The notes under the pieces: model-generated
Told to the model about the DNA's origin: nothing
What the model saw: the letters and a program-made list of their open reading frames with translations, nothing else
Database searches by the model: none
Program-made: the position numbers and the translations under genes
In this document: piece after piece, positions 1 to 6,304 of the stretch
Numbering within the stretch: the stretch's first letter is position 1
How the letters are laid out: each line of letters begins with the position of its first letter
DNA from: a virus
DNA: 6,304 bases
Direction: 5' to 3' (one strand)
Virus record (IMG/VR): IMGVR_UViG_3300008807_000804
Location: 1 to 6,304 of that record

Positions 1-99
1 ATCGGATCGTGCAGGGGCCGCTTCGTTTCTCATTCGAACTGATGGAAACGGCGGACGTGCTCATGAACGCGGTGCGCGTGGACGTGAAAGCCTATGTCG
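1..99. repeat. Terminal redundancy, copy 1 (assembly overlap of a circular molecule)
   Basis: Identical to 6206-6304 when compared block by block. It lies inside the capsid coding sequence and the reading frame is continuous across the junction. Confidence 0.95.
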
Positions 100-1778: not shown

Positions 1779-2411
1779 ATGACCATCAAACTTGGCAATA
1801 TCGCCGATTGGCGCGTTCTTGAAGGCAAGTCGCTGTCGTTTGTCGCACCGGACTATGACGCCAAAAAGCCGCGCCGTGTGGTGCTGTATGTAAACAGCGA
1901 AGCGGCTTGCAATTGGTATATCCAATCTGCGGAAGGTGAACGATTTCTGGCTGCTTTACCAGCCGGTCTGGAAACGCTCGACTTCGTGTGCAACGGCGAT
2001 TTCGACCTGATGCCAAACAGGGCCGAAGGGGTCGAAATACAGTATTGGACGTCGGAAGCTGAGGAATATTGGACCGAAGGCGACGGCGAAACCTTCTCGA
2101 CCATCTATGAGCGCCAGCCGCGTAATGAGGCTTTGGAATATGTCATGTTCCAAGCCTCTCAGAACCAGCTTCGCCGCGACAAGGCCCATGCGGAAGAGCT
2201 TGCAGCAATTCGGGCCGAAATAGGAGCGATGAATGCAGGACAGTCTGGAATACATGGCGGCTCGGCTGCGCAACATCAGGAACCTGGAGCCTCCGGCTCC
2301 GGTGGTGCGCAAGGCGCGGGTGCGGTTCCGGGAGCGGGAGTGGGAAGCGGCGCGGATGGCAAAGACGGCGCCCAAGGGGCAGACGGAACGCCTAAAGGCG
2401 AAAACCCGTGA
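1779..2411 (+). CDS. Hypothetical acidic protein, 210 aa, with a C-terminal Gly/Ala-rich low-complexity tail. It could be a scaffolding or structural protein, judged by position only
   Basis: ATG 1779 has AAGGA (1766-1770) 8 nt upstream. The N-terminal ~110 aa look beta-rich. A helical, charged segment follows (NQLRRDKAHAEELAAIRAEIGAM), and then GGSAAQHQEPGASGSGGAQGAGAVPGAGVGSGADGKDGAQGADGTPKGENP. The stop TGA 2409-2411 overlaps the next start. Confidence 0.65.
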   Translation: MTIKLGNIADWRVLEGKSLSFVAPDYDAKKPRRVVLYVNSEAACNWYIQSAEGERFLAALPAGLETLDFVCNGDFDLMPNRAEGVEIQYWTSEAEEYWTEGDGETFSTIYERQPRNEALEYVMFQASQNQLRRDKAHAEELAAIRAEIGAMNAGQSGIHGGSAAQHQEPGASGSGGAQGAGAVPGAGVGSGADGKDGAQGADGTPKGENP

Positions 2412-3061
2412 GCATGGCCGATAAGATCAGAGAGGCCGTAAGGCGGGTTGCCGAAAGGCAAGCCGCCCTCCCCGACCCCAATCTGGCCAAACGGGTCTTC
2501 CCCCCTCCCCCGCCGCGTCCTGTGCCCGATACGGGCTACAGTCAAGCGTTGGCGGGGATGGTCGACAAGCTTTATCTGAAGTCGAGTAAATTCGTCGATC
2601 AGCAAATGCGGGCCGATATTAAGGGCGCTCATCCGGCGATAGTCGATTTCTCGCGACTGCTTGTTAGACGTATGGCGGCGCTCGGTGTCCCGATGTACCC
2701 GCATTGCGTCTGGCGGGATCGTGAGGCGCAAGAGAGGGCTTACAGGCTCGGCCATAGCAAAGCCCCGTGGGGTGAAAGTCCTCACAACTTCGGTTGTGCG
2801 GTGGATATCATCCACTCACGCCACCTGTGGGACTTGTCCCCTAGGCAGTGGCAAATTGTCGGCCATGTCGGCAACGAACTGGCGGATGCAATGGGGCTAC
2901 TGCTCGATTGGGGCGGTGATTGGAAGAGATATCCCGATGCGCAGATAGGTTGGGACCCGGCTCATTGGGAGTTGGGCGACTGGCGGCGCGGTAAAGCGCT
3001 GCCTTGGGATGCGGAAAAGCATCCTCGCGAAGCCGACTGGCGCGCTAGAATAGCGCGCTAG
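2408..3061 (+). CDS. Zinc metallopeptidase of the LAS/peptidase M15 type (VanY / L-alanyl-D-glutamate peptidase-like). Putative endolysin, 217 aa
   Basis: Motifs read by eye: CVWRDREAQERAYRLGHSKA (R..xQ...G.SKA), SPHNFGCAVDI (SxHxxGxAxD, with H codon 2783-2785 and D codon 2804-2806), DWGGDW, and DPAHWE (H codon 2963-2965). This is the H...D...H zinc triad arrangement of M15/LAS enzymes. The start is either GTG 2408 (GTGA overlap with the upstream stop, AAGGCG 7 nt upstream) or ATG 2414. Confidence 0.85.
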   Translation: MSMADKIREAVRRVAERQAALPDPNLAKRVFPPPPPRPVPDTGYSQALAGMVDKLYLKSSKFVDQQMRADIKGAHPAIVDFSRLLVRRMAALGVPMYPHCVWRDREAQERAYRLGHSKAPWGESPHNFGCAVDIIHSRHLWDLSPRQWQIVGHVGNELADAMGLLLDWGGDWKRYPDAQIGWDPAHWELGDWRRGKALPWDAEKHPREADWRARIAR

Positions 3062-3099: not shown

Positions 3100-3152
3100 C
3101 TCACTCATCTTCTTGTCCCCATGTGCAATTACTGACAGGCAATTATTCAGCG

Positions 3153-4256
3153 ATGTGCAAGTGCCCCACTATGCTCGATGACGGAACGATAATTGGCTGT
3201 CGTTATTGCTCGCAATGCGTGGGCCGGGCAGTTGATGACTGGACGGGCCGTTGCATTGCGGAAAGTATATTTGCAGTCGCTCCGTATTTTCTGTCTCTGA
3301 CCTATGGTCGGGACGAAAACGGGGCGGAAGACCATATCCGGGCGCGGCTGCTAACATACTCGGACATCCAAAAGCTTATGAAGCGCTTTCGCGCGTCCGG
3401 TTATATCCCGCGCTATTTCTGCGTCGGGGAATACGGATCGGCTAAAGGCCGTGCGCATTGGCATGTCCTAATCTTCTGGAAGGATAATTCAGCGGAGATC
3501 GCAAAGCGGATCGAGCACAACGAACTGGTGCGGGCTAAGCTTAAGCGCGGCAAAACGTTGAACGTCCCCGACGGTCCGGTGCCTCCGCATCAGCCTTCCA
3601 CGCGTGACAATCAAGTGCGCCATATTCAGGAGCACTGGCCGCAAGGCTTTTCCACATGGGAAAAGCTCGGCGTCGCGCCTGAAGATACTGCCGCCGCTGT
3701 CCGGTACGTGTGCAAGTACCTCAATAAAGACATAGGCGGTGAAGAAAAACAGGCCATATGCCGTATGTCGAAAGTGCCGCTTCTCGGCGCTGACTGGCTG
3801 CACCATCGTGCGGCCTTGCATGTGGAGGCCGGTTTTTCGCCTCCTGACCTGAAATACGAATTCCCCGGCGTCAATCGCCCGAATGGGGAACGGGTTAAGT
3901 TCATGCTGCGTCCGGGATCGGCTGCGGCAAAACTCTACTGTCAATCTTTCGTGGATCAATGGGCGCGACATCGCCCTGGCCAACATTGGCCACCATCGAA
4001 GTTGATTGACGAATTCATAGACCCCGGCGCTTGGGAAAAGCGCAAAACGGACGAAGGGCAGTACCAATGGGAAAGAAAAGCGGAAGCAATGGAAAAAGCC
4101 GCAACGGCGGCGCGGGAGCTGGAATACGAACTGTGGCTAGAAGCCACGGTGTCAATCGGGCCGCTGCGTTATCCTCAATACCAGCGGGACGCAATGCGCT
4201 CCCCTCCCCTCAAAAGTCCATCGCCGCAACCGGACGTGCCGTTCGGCGGTCTCTGA
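3153..4256 (+). CDS. Rolling-circle replication initiation protein (HUH endonuclease, Microviridae gpA/VP4 type), 367 aa from ATG 3153. An alternative upstream start is GTG 3123
   Basis: Cys-rich N-terminus MCKCP...GCRYCSQCVGRAVDDWTGRCIAE. Motif 1 is FLSLTY (3288-3305). The HUH motif is AHWHVLIF (HWH codons 3456-3464). The double-tyrosine motif is YVCKYLNK (3705-3728), which compares with phiX174 gpA YVAKYVNK. Confidence 0.92.
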   Translation: MCKCPTMLDDGTIIGCRYCSQCVGRAVDDWTGRCIAESIFAVAPYFLSLTYGRDENGAEDHIRARLLTYSDIQKLMKRFRASGYIPRYFCVGEYGSAKGRAHWHVLIFWKDNSAEIAKRIEHNELVRAKLKRGKTLNVPDGPVPPHQPSTRDNQVRHIQEHWPQGFSTWEKLGVAPEDTAAAVRYVCKYLNKDIGGEEKQAICRMSKVPLLGADWLHHRAALHVEAGFSPPDLKYEFPGVNRPNGERVKFMLRPGSAAAKLYCQSFVDQWARHRPGQHWPPSKLIDEFIDPGAWEKRKTDEGQYQWERKAEAMEKAATAARELEYELWLEATVSIGPLRYPQYQRDAMRSPPLKSPSPQPDVPFGGL

Positions 4257-4881: not shown

Positions 4882-4905
4882 TTTCGTTTTGACTTCAAAA
4901 CGAAA
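4882..4905 (+). promoter_or_regulatory. Hairpin abutting and overlapping the ribosome-binding site of ORF78
   Basis: TTTCGTTTTG-ACTT-CAAAACGAAA has a 10-bp stem. Its 3-prime arm ends inside the AAAGG SD (4903-4907), which lies 7 nt before ATG 4915. Confidence 0.45.
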
Positions 4906-4914
4906 GGTTTGTTT

Positions 4915-5151
4915 ATGAAATCAATTCTCCTGCGGCTTTCGCGTCCGATCCTAGAACGGGTCGGAACCATGATTGCCGCCTACTTGATCGCGCGCGGTGT
5001 CGATAGCGACTTGGCGGCGCAACTGATGAACGGCGCGATGGCGATCGCCTTTCTCGTTCTCGATACGCTGACTTCGTCGGTCTATCGGGAGCATGACGAA
5101 AAGCGGCTTTATGCCGAAATCTACGACCGCATGACAAAGGAGGTCGCCTAG
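4915..5151 (+). CDS. Small moderately hydrophobic protein, 78 aa, with a charged C-terminus. It is a candidate membrane or holin-like protein
   Basis: ATG 4915 has AAAGG 7 nt upstream (the track starts at TTG 4909). Hydrophobic stretches are VGTMIAAYLIA and GAMAIAFLVLDTL. The tail is charged: REHDEKRLYAEIYDRMTKEVA. It ends at TAG 5149-5151, in the same frame as the following pilot-protein ORF. Confidence 0.55.
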   Translation: MKSILLRLSRPILERVGTMIAAYLIARGVDSDLAAQLMNGAMAIAFLVLDTLTSSVYREHDEKRLYAEIYDRMTKEVA

Positions 5152-5235
5152 TTCATTCAGGCGCTAATCGGTCCAGCGCTTGGGCTGGTCGGGTCGCTCA
5201 TCGGCGGTTCGAAAAAGCAGACCACGACGTCCGAA

Positions 5236-5898
5236 GTGGACTATGTGAAGCTGCGCCAGAACGCGGAAGCGGCGGGCTTCAATCCGCTGACGGCGCTTCG
5301 TGCCGGTGGCGGAGCGGGGTTCACCACGACGCACCACCCTTCCCTCGCCTCTGGCGGGTTCATGGCCGATGCTCTGTCGAGTTTCGGCAACGCGATCGCG
5401 TCCATCGATCCGATGCGCGATGCAACCGCCAAGCTTGAATATCAGATCAAGCAAGAGACGCTGAAAAACATTCAGGCGGATACTGCCGCCCGCAAGCGGG
5501 CGTCTCTCGGCGGTGTGCCGGTTTCAACCGGCGCAAGGACGGTCGTTCGTGCTTCGCCGCTTCAAAGGGGCCTGCCCGCTTCTGCGGGACTGCCACAAAT
5601 GCCGACGGTCGAGACGCCTACGGTGACTAATCCGTGGCCTACTTCAAGTGGTTGGCCGGTCAATCCCGGTCTGCCGGATGCTGCGACGTATGAGCAACGT
5701 TACGGCGAGCCGGGGGACTGGATCGGCGGCGTTCTCACGTTCGGTGGTGACGTGGCGAATTGGCTATATCGGGGCCAACAGTATTTGAAGCGTCAAACCG
5801 ATGAGGCGCGCAAGAGACCGTATCGCGCGCCGCCTGATCCATATGATCGGAAGATGTATATCCCGCCAGCGTTGTACGGCGGACCTAGTTACCAATAG
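5236..5898 (+). CDS. Minor capsid / DNA pilot protein (gokushovirus VP2-like). The coordinates give the conservative canonical-start version (GTG 5236). The true N-terminus is probably near 5155
   Basis: The motif ...VKLRQNAEAAGFNPLTALRAGG... matches the conserved ..AAG(L/F)NP.LA.. signature of VP2 proteins. The frame is open back to 5152 and encodes the Gly-rich hydrophobic leader FIQALIGPALGLVGSLIGGSKKQ that is typical of VP2 N-termini, but with no ATG, GTG or TTG. The C-terminal half is Pro/Gly-rich. Confidence 0.75.
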   Translation: MDYVKLRQNAEAAGFNPLTALRAGGGAGFTTTHHPSLASGGFMADALSSFGNAIASIDPMRDATAKLEYQIKQETLKNIQADTAARKRASLGGVPVSTGARTVVRASPLQRGLPASAGLPQMPTVETPTVTNPWPTSSGWPVNPGLPDAATYEQRYGEPGDWIGGVLTFGGDVANWLYRGQQYLKRQTDEARKRPYRAPPDPYDRKMYIPPALYGGPSYQ

Positions 5899-5975
5899 GG
5901 CCGATCAAGCCCATTACTAGGATGATCAGGAAAAATACTGCAACGCCCCACATCCAAACTTGAAAGAGCAATTTC

Positions 5976-6068
5976 ATGGCTCGTTCCCTCAAAAAGCCCT
6001 GCGGCGCGTGTGCGCGGCGTCGGGCGAAACTACGCAAGTTTCTCAAACGGTTCAAGAAAGGAACCTGA
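5976..6068 (+). CDS. 30-aa hyper-basic mini-protein. Candidate DNA-binding/packaging protein (functional analogue of phiX174 J / gokushovirus VP8)
   Basis: ATG 5976 has AAAGAG (5963-5968) 7 nt upstream. It translates as MARSLKKPCGACARRRAKLRKFLKRFKKGT*, with 13 of 30 residues Arg/Lys and none acidic. The stop TGA 6066-6068 is 1 nt before the capsid ATG 6070, and its last codons carry the capsid SD. This is the same relative position as J before F in phiX174. It is below the length cutoff of the ORF track. Confidence 0.5.
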   Translation: MARSLKKPCGACARRRAKLRKFLKRFKKGT

Positions 6069-6069
6069 A

Positions 6070-6304
6070 ATGGCTTCAATGAACAGAACCTCCGTTCTTC
6101 CCATGGAGGTGCCTAAGACAAACCGCGTCGAAACTGCGCGCGGCATTACATCCCTGCCCGCTGGTAAGGCGGTCCCTATATACGCCACCGGCCTGCATCG
6201 CATGGATCGGATCGTGCAGGGGCCGCTTCGTTTCTCATTCGAACTGATGGAAACGGCGGACGTGCTCATGAACGCGGTGCGCGTGGACGTGAAAGCCTAT
6301 GTCG
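6070..6304 (+). CDS. Major capsid protein (Microviridae F/VP1 family), 5-prime part. Continues through the circular junction into 1..1520
   Basis: ATG 6070 is preceded by AAAGGA (6057-6062) at 7-nt spacing. It translates as MASMNRTSVLPMEVPKTNRVETARGITSLPAGKAVPIYATGLHRMDRIVQGPL... and runs off the window end with no stop. Base 6214 corresponds to base 9, and 6214-6070=144, so it is in frame with track ORF 9..1520. The track omits it because it has no stop codon within the window. Confidence 0.85.
   Translation, partial: MASMNRTSVLPMEVPKTNRVETARGITSLPAGKAVPIYATGLHRMDRIVQGPLRFSFELMETADVLMNAVRVDVKAYV
6206..6304. repeat. Terminal redundancy, copy 2 (assembly overlap of a circular molecule)
   Basis: Identical to 1-99. 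Confidence 0.95.

What the first reader, a model, noticed from the sequence alone, without database searches (positions are those of the whole stretch)
5137..5238. The conserved pilot-protein N-terminus has no canonical start codon and lies in frame behind a TAG and a perfect Shine-Dalgarno
ORF78 (4915..5151) and the VP2-like ORF are in the same frame, separated only by TAG 5149-5151. The 28 codons after the TAG (5152-5235, FIQALIGPALGLVGSLIGGSKKQTTTSE) are open. They encode the Gly/Ala/Leu-rich hydrophobic leader that, as far as I recall, begins gokushovirus VP2 proteins just upstream of the AAG(L/F)NP.LA motif. This stretch contains no ATG, GTG or TTG. A full-consensus SD AAGGAGGT (5137-5144) sits at the end of ORF78, 10 nt upstream of ATT 5155. 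The first canonical start, GTG 5236, has no SD. The options are:
(1) initiation at ATT 5155;
(2) termination-reinitiation coupling at the TAG;
(3) amber read-through giving an ORF78-VP2 fusion of about 327 aa alongside free ORF78;
(4) a sequencing error at the TAG.
Automatic gene callers would truncate the protein at 5236.
Basis: partly seen in the sequence, partly recalled or inferred. Interest (0 to 1): 0.72.

Follow-up and report, generated by a model that had tools for sequence, protein, structure and literature searches.

The report
Pilot gene with non-canonical start codon
An essential virion protein (the DNA pilot) of this small single-stranded-DNA phage, and of at least 26 relatives living in root-nodule-type bacteria, has no normal start codon; it most likely starts at a weak ATT/ATC codon three bases after the stop of the preceding gene, so annotation pipelines cut off its conserved front end.

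Summary
ORF78 ends at TAG 5149-5151. It is preceded by AAGGAGGT 5137-5144 and followed in frame by TTC ATT and 26 more open codons with no ATG, GTG or TTG. These codons align residue for residue with the N-terminus of pilot proteins that start with ATG.

The same junction, GGAGG-N5-stop-TTC-(ATC/ATT/CTG), occurs in 26 other distinct sequences. They include prophages of Mesorhizobium, Aminobacter and Agrobacterium, and their pilot proteins share a median of 42% identity.
- The stop codon varies: TAG 17, TAA 8, TGA 1. The closest relative has TGA TTC ATC.
- This rules out a sequencing error and argues against amber-specific read-through.
- The leader is under purifying selection (pN/pS 0.17).
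- The codon after TTC is always one of the near-cognate starts that give 1-2% of AUG activity in E. coli.
- The perfect SD goes with loss of ATG: 23/23 junctions against 2/31 canonical relatives.
- Canonical relatives couple the same two genes through ATGA or TRATG overlaps.

Best reading: weak near-cognate initiation at ATT 5155, driven by the SD and coupled to ORF78 termination. It is not proven. TTC is invariant, even at its wobble base, and this is unexplained. Database proteins of this class, including this window's and RefSeq's, are truncated.

The parts
4902..4907 (+). GAAAGG ribosome-binding site of ORF78, 7 nt before ATG 4915
   Evidence: Read from the sequence. GAAAGG-N7-9-ATG is the usual RBS of the small ORF and of the capsid gene in the related genomes.
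4915..5151 (+). ORF78: a small, partly hydrophobic protein of a conserved family that always sits immediately upstream of the pilot gene. It ends at TAG 5149-5151.
   Evidence: A profile built from 23 members finds this family directly upstream of the pilot gene in about 85 loci, canonical and non-canonical. Hydropathy was computed. No Pfam or PHROG family matched.
5137..5144 (+). Shine-Dalgarno AAGGAGGT, inside the last codons of ORF78. The GGAGG core is 5139-5143.
   Evidence: GGAGG is invariant, and always 5 nt before the stop, in all 23 junctions first tabulated and in all that were added later. A perfect GGAGG is present in 23/23 non-canonical junctions against 2/31 canonical ones, Fisher p = 3e-13. 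The flanking codons vary as amino acids (R/K/Q/W-E-G/A/V/D), so the constraint is on the nucleotides.
5149..5151 (+). TAG, a genuine stop codon of ORF78
   Evidence: At this position relatives carry TAG in 17 sequences, TAA in 8 and TGA in 1. The closest relative, L111, has TGA.
5152..5154 (+). TTC: an invariant triplet between the stop and the proposed start. It stands where ATG stands in canonical homologues. Its role is unexplained.
   Evidence: TTC is found in every non-canonical junction, although only 76% of Phe codons in the same genes are TTC. If it were merely a Phe codon, the chance of this is about 0.001. Codon-by-codon homology with ATG is shown by L085 against L121 and by the BLASTP alignment of F opposite M.
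5155..5157 (+). ATT, the proposed near-cognate initiation codon of the pilot gene
   Evidence: This codon is ATC in 18 sequences, ATT in 7 and CTG in 1. All three belong to the four near-cognate codons that initiate at 1-2% of AUG in E. coli (10.1101/063800). A near-cognate codon occupies this position in 23/23 non-canonical junctions against 4/31 canonical relatives, p = 3e-11.
5158..5235 (+). Gly/Ala/Leu-rich hydrophobic leader of the pilot protein (QALIGPALGLVGSLIGGSKKQTTTSE), translated
   Evidence: It aligns with the N-termini of ATG-started homologues. In the window's subclade pN/pS is 0.17 at pS 0.64. Across 23 sequences there are 0 stops in this frame against 20 and 16 in the other two frames. 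AlphaFold models residues 2-17 as a helix, with low confidence.
5236..5238 (+). GTG, the first canonical start. Gene callers use it, and it is almost certainly not the real start.
   Evidence: The database protein of this contig (P0001, 220 aa) begins here. No SD lies upstream. Starting here would delete the conserved leader.
5269..5301 (+). AAGFNPLTALR, the invariant signature motif of this pilot-protein family
   Evidence: Invariant columns G42 F43 N44 P45 L46 T47 R50 in alignment A1.
5155..5898 (+). Proposed full pilot-protein gene: 247 codons, stop TAG 5896-5898
   Evidence: tblastn matches genes annotated as DNA pilot protein in Flyfo microvirus Tbat2_83 and Rhodobacter phage Ebor. Ebor Gp3 was detected in virions by LC-MS/MS (PMC11980548). 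There is a weak hit to PHROG 11693, 'pilot protein for DNA ejection'.

Best explanation
The pilot-protein gene starts at the junction, not at GTG 5236.

Proposed mechanism. Ribosomes translate ORF78 and terminate at TAG 5149-5151. The strong SD AAGGAGGT lies in ORF78's last codons, only 5 nt before the stop. It holds or recruits a 30S or 70S ribosome there. That ribosome then initiates with fMet-tRNA on the near-cognate ATT 5155, three bases past the stop. The product is a 247-aa pilot protein whose first residues form the conserved hydrophobic leader.

A weak start codon paired with a strong SD and with coupling would give a low, fixed output. That suits a protein needed in few copies per virion.

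What is shown: the leader is translated; the stop is a real stop; the SD and the near-cognate codon are conserved and co-occur with loss of ATG; canonical relatives couple the same two genes through stop/start overlap.

What is inferred: ATT is the codon actually used; initiation depends on ORF78 termination; the purpose is low expression.

What is unexplained: why the intervening TTC is invariant.
For: (1) Twenty-six other distinct sequences share GGAGG-N5-stop-TTC-(ATC/ATT/CTG). Their pilot proteins are 28-100% identical, median 42%.
(2) The leader aligns from residue 1 with ATG-started homologues. It evolves under purifying selection, with no stops in frame.
(3) The second codon is always a near-cognate start, 23/23 against 4/31 in canonical relatives. 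Position 3 varies freely. These codons give 1-2% of AUG activity in E. coli.
(4) A perfect GGAGG at fixed spacing occurs in 23/23 junctions against 2/31 canonical relatives. Other genes of these phages use a different, weaker GAAAGG RBS.
(5) In canonical relatives the same small ORF's stop overlaps or abuts the pilot ATG: ATGA in 7, TRATG in at least 16, TAG-ATG in 1, TAG-T-ATG in 1. Phage Ebor has TAATG. Coupling is therefore the family norm.
(6) The 9 nt stop-TTC-ATY form a predicted unpaired, A/U-rich island, whereas the SD is mostly paired.
(7) No alternative-frame ORF crosses the junction.
Against: - There is no direct protein or ribosome-profiling evidence.
- ATT lies 11 nt from the GGAGG core. 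Canonical starts in these phages sit at the equivalent of 4-8 nt, so the spacing is long.
- TTC, not ATY, occupies the position homologous to ATG and the better SD spacing (8 nt, the same as the ATG of L076).
- TTC is invariant even at its synonymous third base. A simple spacer would not predict this.
- The Fisher tests treat sequences as independent, although all non-canonical junctions fall in one clade.
- SD sequestration, which would support obligatory coupling, is not above shuffled controls (0.83 against 0.76).
Confidence: 0.65

Rival explanations
1. Stop-codon read-through. A fraction of ribosomes decode TAG 5149-5151 as sense and make an ORF78-pilot fusion of about 327 aa. That fusion is the functional source of the pilot domain, or one of them.
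For: ORF78 and the pilot ORF are in the same frame, separated by a single stop, in every non-canonical genome. The residues just after the stop (F, I) are conserved. Read-through would give the low output expected for a pilot protein.
Against: - All three stop codons occur, with TAA in 8 of 26 and TGA, the leaky stop of bacteria, in only 1.
- The base after the stop is always T, which from general knowledge is a strong termination context in E. coli.
- An initiation-type SD is invariant, and read-through has no need for it.
- TTC is fixed beyond what coding for Phe requires.
- In canonical relatives the two genes are in different frames, and no relative shows a fusion.
- No consistent downstream structure was seen.
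Confidence: 0.08
2. The restart happens on TTC itself. After termination the SD places TTC (8 nt downstream) in the P site. Translation then resumes either with fMet-tRNA on UUC, or without initiator tRNA, using Phe-tRNA followed by Ile-tRNA. The protein would begin M-I-Q... or F-I-Q....
For: - TTC is invariant, wobble base included.
- It is the exact positional homologue of ATG in canonical relatives.
- Its SD spacing equals that of the ATG in L076.
Against: - To my knowledge there is no natural precedent in bacteria.
- UUC differs from AUG at two positions.
- IF2 and IF3 select against elongator tRNAs (established knowledge).
- It does not explain why the next codon is restricted to near-cognate starts, when that position is free in canonical relatives.
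Confidence: 0.08
3. The gene really starts at GTG 5236, as annotated, and 5152-5235 is untranslated.
For: It is the first canonical start, and it is the one automatic callers chose.
Against: - The leader is conserved at protein level, with saturated synonymous change and no stops.
- It is homologous to the N-terminus of ATG-started proteins.
- In relatives the first canonical start falls anywhere from codon 5 to beyond the invariant AAGFNPLT motif.
- No SD precedes 5236.
Confidence: 0.02
4. Assembly or sequencing error at 5149-5157.
For: None beyond the oddity of the junction.
Against: The same junction is found in 26 other independent assemblies. These include complete bacterial replicons and a GenBank phage record.
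Confidence: 0.01

Closest known systems
AUU-initiated genes of E. coli (infC, pcnB) and near-cognate initiation in general
   Same: A conserved coding sequence begins at AUU/AUC/CUG behind a good SD. Output is expected to be a few per cent of AUG (10.1101/063800). Initiation at such codons is checked by IF3 (established knowledge).
   Different: - The start sits 3 nt after the stop of an upstream ORF, with the SD inside that ORF.
- The codon drifts among ATC, ATT and CTG.
- It is always preceded by an invariant UUC.
- It is a phage structural gene, and no link to IF3 autoregulation is known.
Translational coupling by stop/start overlap (ATGA, TRATG), as in canonical relatives of this phage, in phage Ebor, and in many operons
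   Same: It involves the same gene pair (small ORF then pilot) with the same tight juxtaposition of stop and start. The scanning and unfolding models of coupling apply (PMC12548453).
   Different: - There is no overlap; a 3-nt gap separates stop and start.
- There is no canonical start codon.
- The SD is perfect, where canonical relatives have a weak one or none.
Programmed stop-codon read-through (Q-beta A1 protein, UGA)
   Same: Two in-frame ORFs are separated by one stop, and the downstream part is a minor virion protein.
   Different: The stop identity is not conserved and is mostly TAG or TAA. An SD is present. Homologues express the downstream protein on its own.
prfB (RF2) +1 frameshift cassette
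   Same: A strong SD lies 2-3 nt upstream of the last sense codon before a stop. The geometry is nearly identical: GGAGG-NN-NNN-stop here, AGGGGG-UAU-CUU-UGA in prfB (the prfB sequence is from memory).
   Different: The downstream ORF is in frame 0, not +1. The last sense codons (GCC, GAC and others) cannot re-pair at +1. The +1 frame closes within a few codons.

Membership tests
Gene with a near-cognate (non-ATG/GTG/TTG) initiation codon | Conserved, selected coding sequence lies upstream of the first canonical start, with no canonical start back to the preceding in-frame stop | tested here: met
Gene with a near-cognate (non-ATG/GTG/TTG) initiation codon | A near-cognate codon (AUU/AUC/AUA/CUG) is conserved at the head of the conserved region | tested here: met
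   26/26 junctions carry ATC, ATT or CTG. In the statistical comparison the figures were 23/23 against 4/31 canonical relatives.
Gene with a near-cognate (non-ATG/GTG/TTG) initiation codon | Shine-Dalgarno at a functional distance | tested here: met
   GGAGG is invariant, 11 nt before ATY (10 nt from GGAGGT in the window). This is long but within the range known to work in E. coli (the range is from general knowledge).
Gene with a near-cognate (non-ATG/GTG/TTG) initiation codon | N-terminal Met at that codon, shown by proteomics or start-site profiling | not testable with these tools
   No proteomic or ribosome-profiling data were available for any genome with this junction.
Translationally coupled gene pair (termination-reinitiation) | The start of the downstream gene lies within a few nt of the upstream stop, and the arrangement is conserved | tested here: met
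   A 3-nt gap in all non-canonical genomes. Distances of -1 to +4 nt in 25 or more canonical relatives.
Translationally coupled gene pair (termination-reinitiation) | Downstream expression depends on upstream translation | not testable with these tools
   The SD is predicted to be mostly paired, but not more than in shuffled controls. A premature-stop reporter is needed.
Programmed stop-codon read-through | A conserved, leaky stop codon and context | tested here: not met
   TAG 17, TAA 8, TGA 1, and the next base is always T.
Programmed stop-codon read-through | The downstream domain has no initiation signals of its own | tested here: not met
   Invariant GGAGG plus a near-cognate start. Homologues are expressed from their own ATG.
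Microvirus DNA pilot protein (H/VP2 class) | Sequence homology to proteins annotated as pilot, or shown to be pilot | tested here: met
   tblastn hits Flyfo Tbat2_83 'DNA pilot protein' (1e-12) and Ebor Gp3 (2e-5). Ebor Gp3 is virion-associated by mass spectrometry. The PHROG 11693 hit is marginal (E = 0.012). No Pfam family matched.
Microvirus DNA pilot protein (H/VP2 class) | N-terminal hydrophobic helix, long alpha-helices, and a gene next to the capsid gene | tested here: inconclusive
   The AlphaFold model is helical (H2-17, H87-117, H188-221), but mean pLDDT is 68.6 and the N-terminus scores below 50. There are no PDB matches by sequence or fold. Synteny with the capsid gene holds.

The most novel reading that the evidence does not exclude
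Stop-UUC-AUY behind a tightly spaced SD may be a dedicated restart signal. On this reading the post-termination ribosome, held by the SD, resumes on UUC. It would use either an unconventional fMet initiation or an initiator-tRNA-independent restart giving an N-terminal Phe. That would explain why UUC is invariant to its wobble base, why it replaces ATG codon for codon, and why it sits at the canonical SD spacing.
Probability: 0.07. Interest if true: 0.9.

Novelty: new variant of a known kind. Interest (0 to 1): 0.58.

Why it matters
Confirmed natural use of start codons other than AUG, GUG or UUG is very rare in bacteria and phages. E. coli has two accepted cases. Here an essential structural gene has kept such a start across a deeply diverged phage clade, together with a precise, conserved junction grammar. 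This offers several things.
- A natural, comparative system for studying near-cognate initiation and termination-reinitiation in Alphaproteobacteria.
- An unexplained invariant triplet (UUC) that points to a context rule not yet described.
- A practical annotation fix. About a quarter of the top 120 database homologues are N-terminally truncated. Ten of the eleven truncated entries whose DNA could be read carry this junction. In RefSeq the Aminobacter niigataensis copy lacks 64 residues, including the family's invariant motif, and a spurious antisense ORF is called across the junction.
No paper in the searchable library links microviruses with non-canonical start codons.

Tried and rejected
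- A single-protein scan of IMG/VR found no relatives.
- Megablast of the whole window against GenBank phages found nothing.
- A DNA-pattern scan of IMG/VR for GGAGGNNNNNTAGTTCATC returned 120 chance matches. None was followed by a pilot-like ORF, and there was no sign that the motif marks gene junctions in other phages.
- Pfam gave nothing for the pilot protein, ORF78 or the capsid fragment. A PDB sequence search and a Foldseek PDB search gave nothing. Foldseek against BFVD hit only unnamed viral proteins with poor TM-scores.
- I tested whether the SD is sequestered in a conserved hairpin, which would force coupling. It is paired in most predictions, and some relatives have striking CCUCC/GGAGG stems. 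The pairing probability is not above shuffled controls (0.83 against 0.76), and no common structure emerged.
- I tested entry by frameshifting from another frame. No conserved open frame or start crosses the junction.
- I considered tRNA hopping over the stop. The last sense codons (GCC, GAC, CAC and others) do not match TTC.
- I considered hidden starts overlapping the stop, a promoter or -35 element (TTGAC in some), complementarity of TTCAT to the ATGAA of the ORF78 start, and a primase or origin signal. None of these is shared by all members.
- Ebor Gp2 is not detectably homologous to ORF78.
- The look-up of P0004 found no record. P0074 turned out to be a mis-called canonical gene.
Full report
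**What the window is.** The 6304-nt window is a circular microvirus genome with a 99-nt terminal overlap, so the true length is 6205 nt.
- The major capsid gene starts at ATG 6070 and wraps round to 1520.
- An M15 peptidase lies at 2408-3061 and a Rep protein at 3123-4256.
- ORF78 lies at 4915-5151 and the pilot-like ORF ends at 5898.

By tblastn the pilot ORF matches uncultured 'Flyfo' and 'Tortoise' microviruses, Rhizobium phage RHph_X92 and Rhodobacter phage Ebor. It also matches prophages in Mesorhizobium, Aminobacter, Aquibium, Rhizobium, Neorhizobium and Agrobacterium. This places the phage with the occultatumvirus-type microviruses of Hyphomicrobiales described by Zucker et al. (PMC9753089), not with the gokushoviruses.

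**The observation.** The frame is open with no ATG, GTG or TTG up to GTG 5236. The composite motif never occurs in 200 shuffles of the window. The public protein called from this contig (P0001) is 220 aa and starts at GTG 5236.

**Homology extends upstream of 5236.** Most of the 120 best database homologues start with Met followed by a Gly-rich hydrophobic segment of about 27-30 residues. Next comes (K)KKQTTTSxVDY and then the invariant AAGFNPLTALR. The window's 5152-5235 translation aligns with these from residue 1. For example, FIQALIGPALGLVGSLIGG-SKKQTTTSEVDYVKL aligns with MIGALIGAGASIIGSLFGGGSKKQTTTSEVDYVKM of P0023. F stands opposite the initiator Met. The same holds at codon level between relatives. 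Canonical L085 reads ATG ATT GGT GAA CTT ATT ACC... and non-canonical L121 reads TTC ATC GGT GAA CTA ATA ACC....

**The junction is a clade-wide feature.** I read the DNA upstream of the pilot motif in about 130 related loci. They came from GenBank phages, IMG/VR, JGI metagenomes, GTDB genomes, Logan/ENA contigs and PLSDB.
- Twenty-six further distinct sequences share GGAGG-N5-stop-TTC-(ATC/ATT/CTG) followed by the leader, with no canonical start. They include Tortoise microvirus 47 and prophages of Aminobacter aganoensis, A. niigataensis, A. sp. BE82, five Mesorhizobium strains and Agrobacterium sp. GD03872.
- Their pilot proteins are 28-100% identical, median 42%. Synonymous sites in the leader are near saturation (pS 0.64).
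- The stop is TAG in 17, TAA in 8 and TGA in 1. The next-but-one codon is ATC in 18, ATT in 7 and CTG in 1.
- A close relative of the window by database search (P0035 = L111-L113; 87% identical over the 42% of the query that aligns; 58% over the full protein) has AAGGAGGCGGCC TGA TTC ATC.

A sequencing error is therefore excluded. Nothing about the site is specific to amber codons.

**The leader is translated.** The five members of the window's subclade all encode FIQALIGPALGLV.SLIG. For codons 3-18, pN/pS is 0.17 at pS 0.64. Across 23 sequences the first 27 codons hold no stop in this frame, against 20 and 16 stops in the other two frames. No open frame or start in another frame crosses the junction, so entry by frameshift is excluded.

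**What canonical relatives do.** A profile built from the ORF78-like proteins finds this small protein immediately upstream of the pilot gene in about 85 loci. Where the pilot has a normal start, that start overlaps or abuts the small ORF's stop:
- ATGA or GTGA in 7;
- TGATG or TAATG in at least 16;
- TAG-ATG in L076;
- TAG-T-ATG in L086.

The isolated phage Ebor has TAATG between Gp2 and its pilot Gp3. Gp3 was found in virions by LC-MS/MS (PMC11980548). Tight translational coupling of a small upstream ORF to the pilot gene is therefore the norm in this family. The two proteins are made separately, in different frames.

**Signals that go with loss of ATG.**
- A perfect GGAGG 4-12 nt upstream is present in 23/23 non-canonical junctions, always exactly 5 nt before the stop. 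It is present in only 2/31 canonical ones, and those two are the non-overlapping L076 and L086 (Fisher p = 3e-13).
- The flanking codons change amino acid (R/K/Q/W-E-G/A/V/D) while G-GAG-G stays fixed. The constraint is therefore on the RNA.
- Other genes of these phages use a different RBS, GAAAGG-N7-9-ATG.
- The codon after TTC belongs to {ATT, ATC, ATA, CTG} in 23/23 non-canonical junctions against 4/31 canonical relatives (p = 3e-11). Position 3 varies freely.
- Those four codons are the near-cognates reported to initiate at 1-2% of AUG in E. coli (10.1101/063800).

These tests ignore phylogeny. A rough NJ tree puts all non-canonical members in one clade, with about ten canonical members interspersed. 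The latter carry unrelated leader types, which suggests module exchange. The p-values should therefore be read as descriptive.

**Best explanation.** I propose weak initiation at ATT 5155 (ATC or CTG in relatives), driven by the strong SD and coupled to termination of ORF78 three bases upstream.
- Predicted structure fits this. The nine bases stop-TTC-ATY form a consistently unpaired, A/U-rich island (unpaired probability 0.53-0.74). The SD region is mostly paired (0.06-0.3). SD pairing is not significantly above shuffled controls, however.
- Both the scanning and the unfolding models of coupling would accommodate it (PMC12548453).
- A weak codon, a strong SD and coupling together would give a low, fixed ratio of pilot protein to its neighbours. 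Pilot proteins are minor virion components (general knowledge of phiX174 H), so this is plausible, but it is an inference.

**What this does not explain.** TTC is present in every non-canonical junction.
- In the same genes only 76% of Phe codons are TTC. Invariance at the wobble base is therefore unexpected even if the codon were translated (P about 0.001). It is far more unexpected for a neutral spacer.
- TTC is the positional homologue of ATG. It also sits 8 nt from GGAGG, the spacing of the ATG in L076, whereas ATY sits at 11 nt.
- In the register of the phages' other RBSs, the stop is at aligned spacing 5, TTC at 8 and ATY at 11.
- The last sense codon is also biased to GNC.

I could not find a convincing reason. 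Hopping, hidden starts, a shared hairpin and complementarity to the ORF78 start all fail to hold for every member. A context requirement for near-cognate initiation (the -3 to -1, or E-site, codon) is the conservative guess. A restart on UUC itself is the radical one.

**Rivals.**
- Read-through is unlikely. All three stops occur, and TGA, the leaky one in bacteria, occurs only once. T always follows the stop. The SD would have no role. No fused homologue exists.
- A start at GTG 5236 is contradicted by the conservation of the leader. In relatives the first canonical start wanders from codon 5 to beyond the invariant motif.

**Consequences for annotation.** About 28 of the 120 best homologues are N-terminally truncated. 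I read the DNA for eleven of them. Ten carry this junction: P0035, P0025, P0053, P0120, P0083, P0105, P0028, P0071, P0109 and P0010. The eleventh, P0074, is a mis-called canonical gene. In RefSeq, the Aminobacter niigataensis plasmid p2 copy is annotated from an internal TTG. It lacks 64 residues, including AAGFNPLTALR, and an antisense 'hypothetical protein' is called across the small ORF and the junction.

**Novelty.** Near-cognate starts and translational coupling are both known. A conserved stop-UUC-AUY junction behind a fixed SD, serving an essential phage structural gene, appears not to have been described. No paper in the searchable library combines microviruses with non-canonical start codons, and the occultatumvirus and Ebor papers do not mention it. 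I rate it a new variant of a known kind, of moderate to good interest. The unexplained UUC is the most intriguing part.

Noticed in passing
window 5976-6068 (+): A 30-aa, highly basic ORF, MARSLKKPCGACARRRAKLRKFLKRFKKGT, lies between the pilot and capsid genes with its own GAAAGAG RBS. It is conserved in relatives as KKPCGACxRRRAxLxKxLxRFKKG. It is probably the J/VP8-type ssDNA-binding protein, here with a CxxC. It is too short for standard ORF lists.
   Followed up: partly
window 5885-6079 (-); L111 1821-1931, L114 1836-1946, L115 1840-1932, L119 1876-1974: Gene callers in relatives call a 30-36 aa hydrophobic ORF on the minus strand at the spot where the plus-strand basic ORF lies. It is probably a spurious antisense call, because microvirus genes are normally all on one strand.
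   Followed up: no
L115 1-776 and L118 1-776 (Logan SRR23962319 contig; GCA_029289365.1 JARJFE010000791.1): A relative with the same junction carries a 272-aa gene just upstream of the small ORF. It hits Pfam Anti-Pycsar_Apyc1 / Lactamase_B. This is a possible anti-defence nuclease in a microvirus-type element of about 8 kb.
   Followed up: no
window 1-99 and 6206-6304: A 99-nt exact terminal direct repeat. The contig is a circular genome of 6205 nt, and the capsid gene spans the join (ATG 6070 to 1520).
   Followed up: yes
window 4902-4907, 5962-5968, 6055-6060; relatives: The small ORF, the basic ORF and the capsid gene all use GAAAGG-N7-9-ATG. This corresponds to the 5' half of an extended SD, AGAAAGGAGG. 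Only the pilot junction has the GGAGG core. The 16S tail sequence this assumes comes from memory and was not checked.
   Followed up: partly
L252 3192-3683 (-) and 3693-4208 (+) (NZ_CP132960.1, Aminobacter niigataensis plasmid p2): The RefSeq annotation truncates the pilot gene by 64 codons, starting at an internal TTG. It also places an antisense hypothetical protein over the small ORF and the junction.
   Followed up: yes
window 5145-5163: CGCCT (5145-5149) can pair with AGGCG (5159-5163). This leaves AGTTCATTC, which holds the proposed start, in a 9-nt loop. The closest relative L111 can form GCCTG/CAGGC around ATTCATC. The feature is seen only in the 'FIQ' subclade and is not general.
   Followed up: partly
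L048 vs L064; L085 vs L121: Leader modules look exchangeable. L048 (non-canonical) and L064 (canonical, MVAPAIVG...) are close in the body of the protein but unrelated in the leader. L085 and L121 share the leader codon for codon but lie in different clades. This suggests recombination within or just after the leader.
   Followed up: no
window 2408-2411: The peptidase gene starts at a GTG that overlaps the TGA of the preceding ORF (GTGA). The genome therefore uses classical stop/start overlap elsewhere.
   Followed up: no
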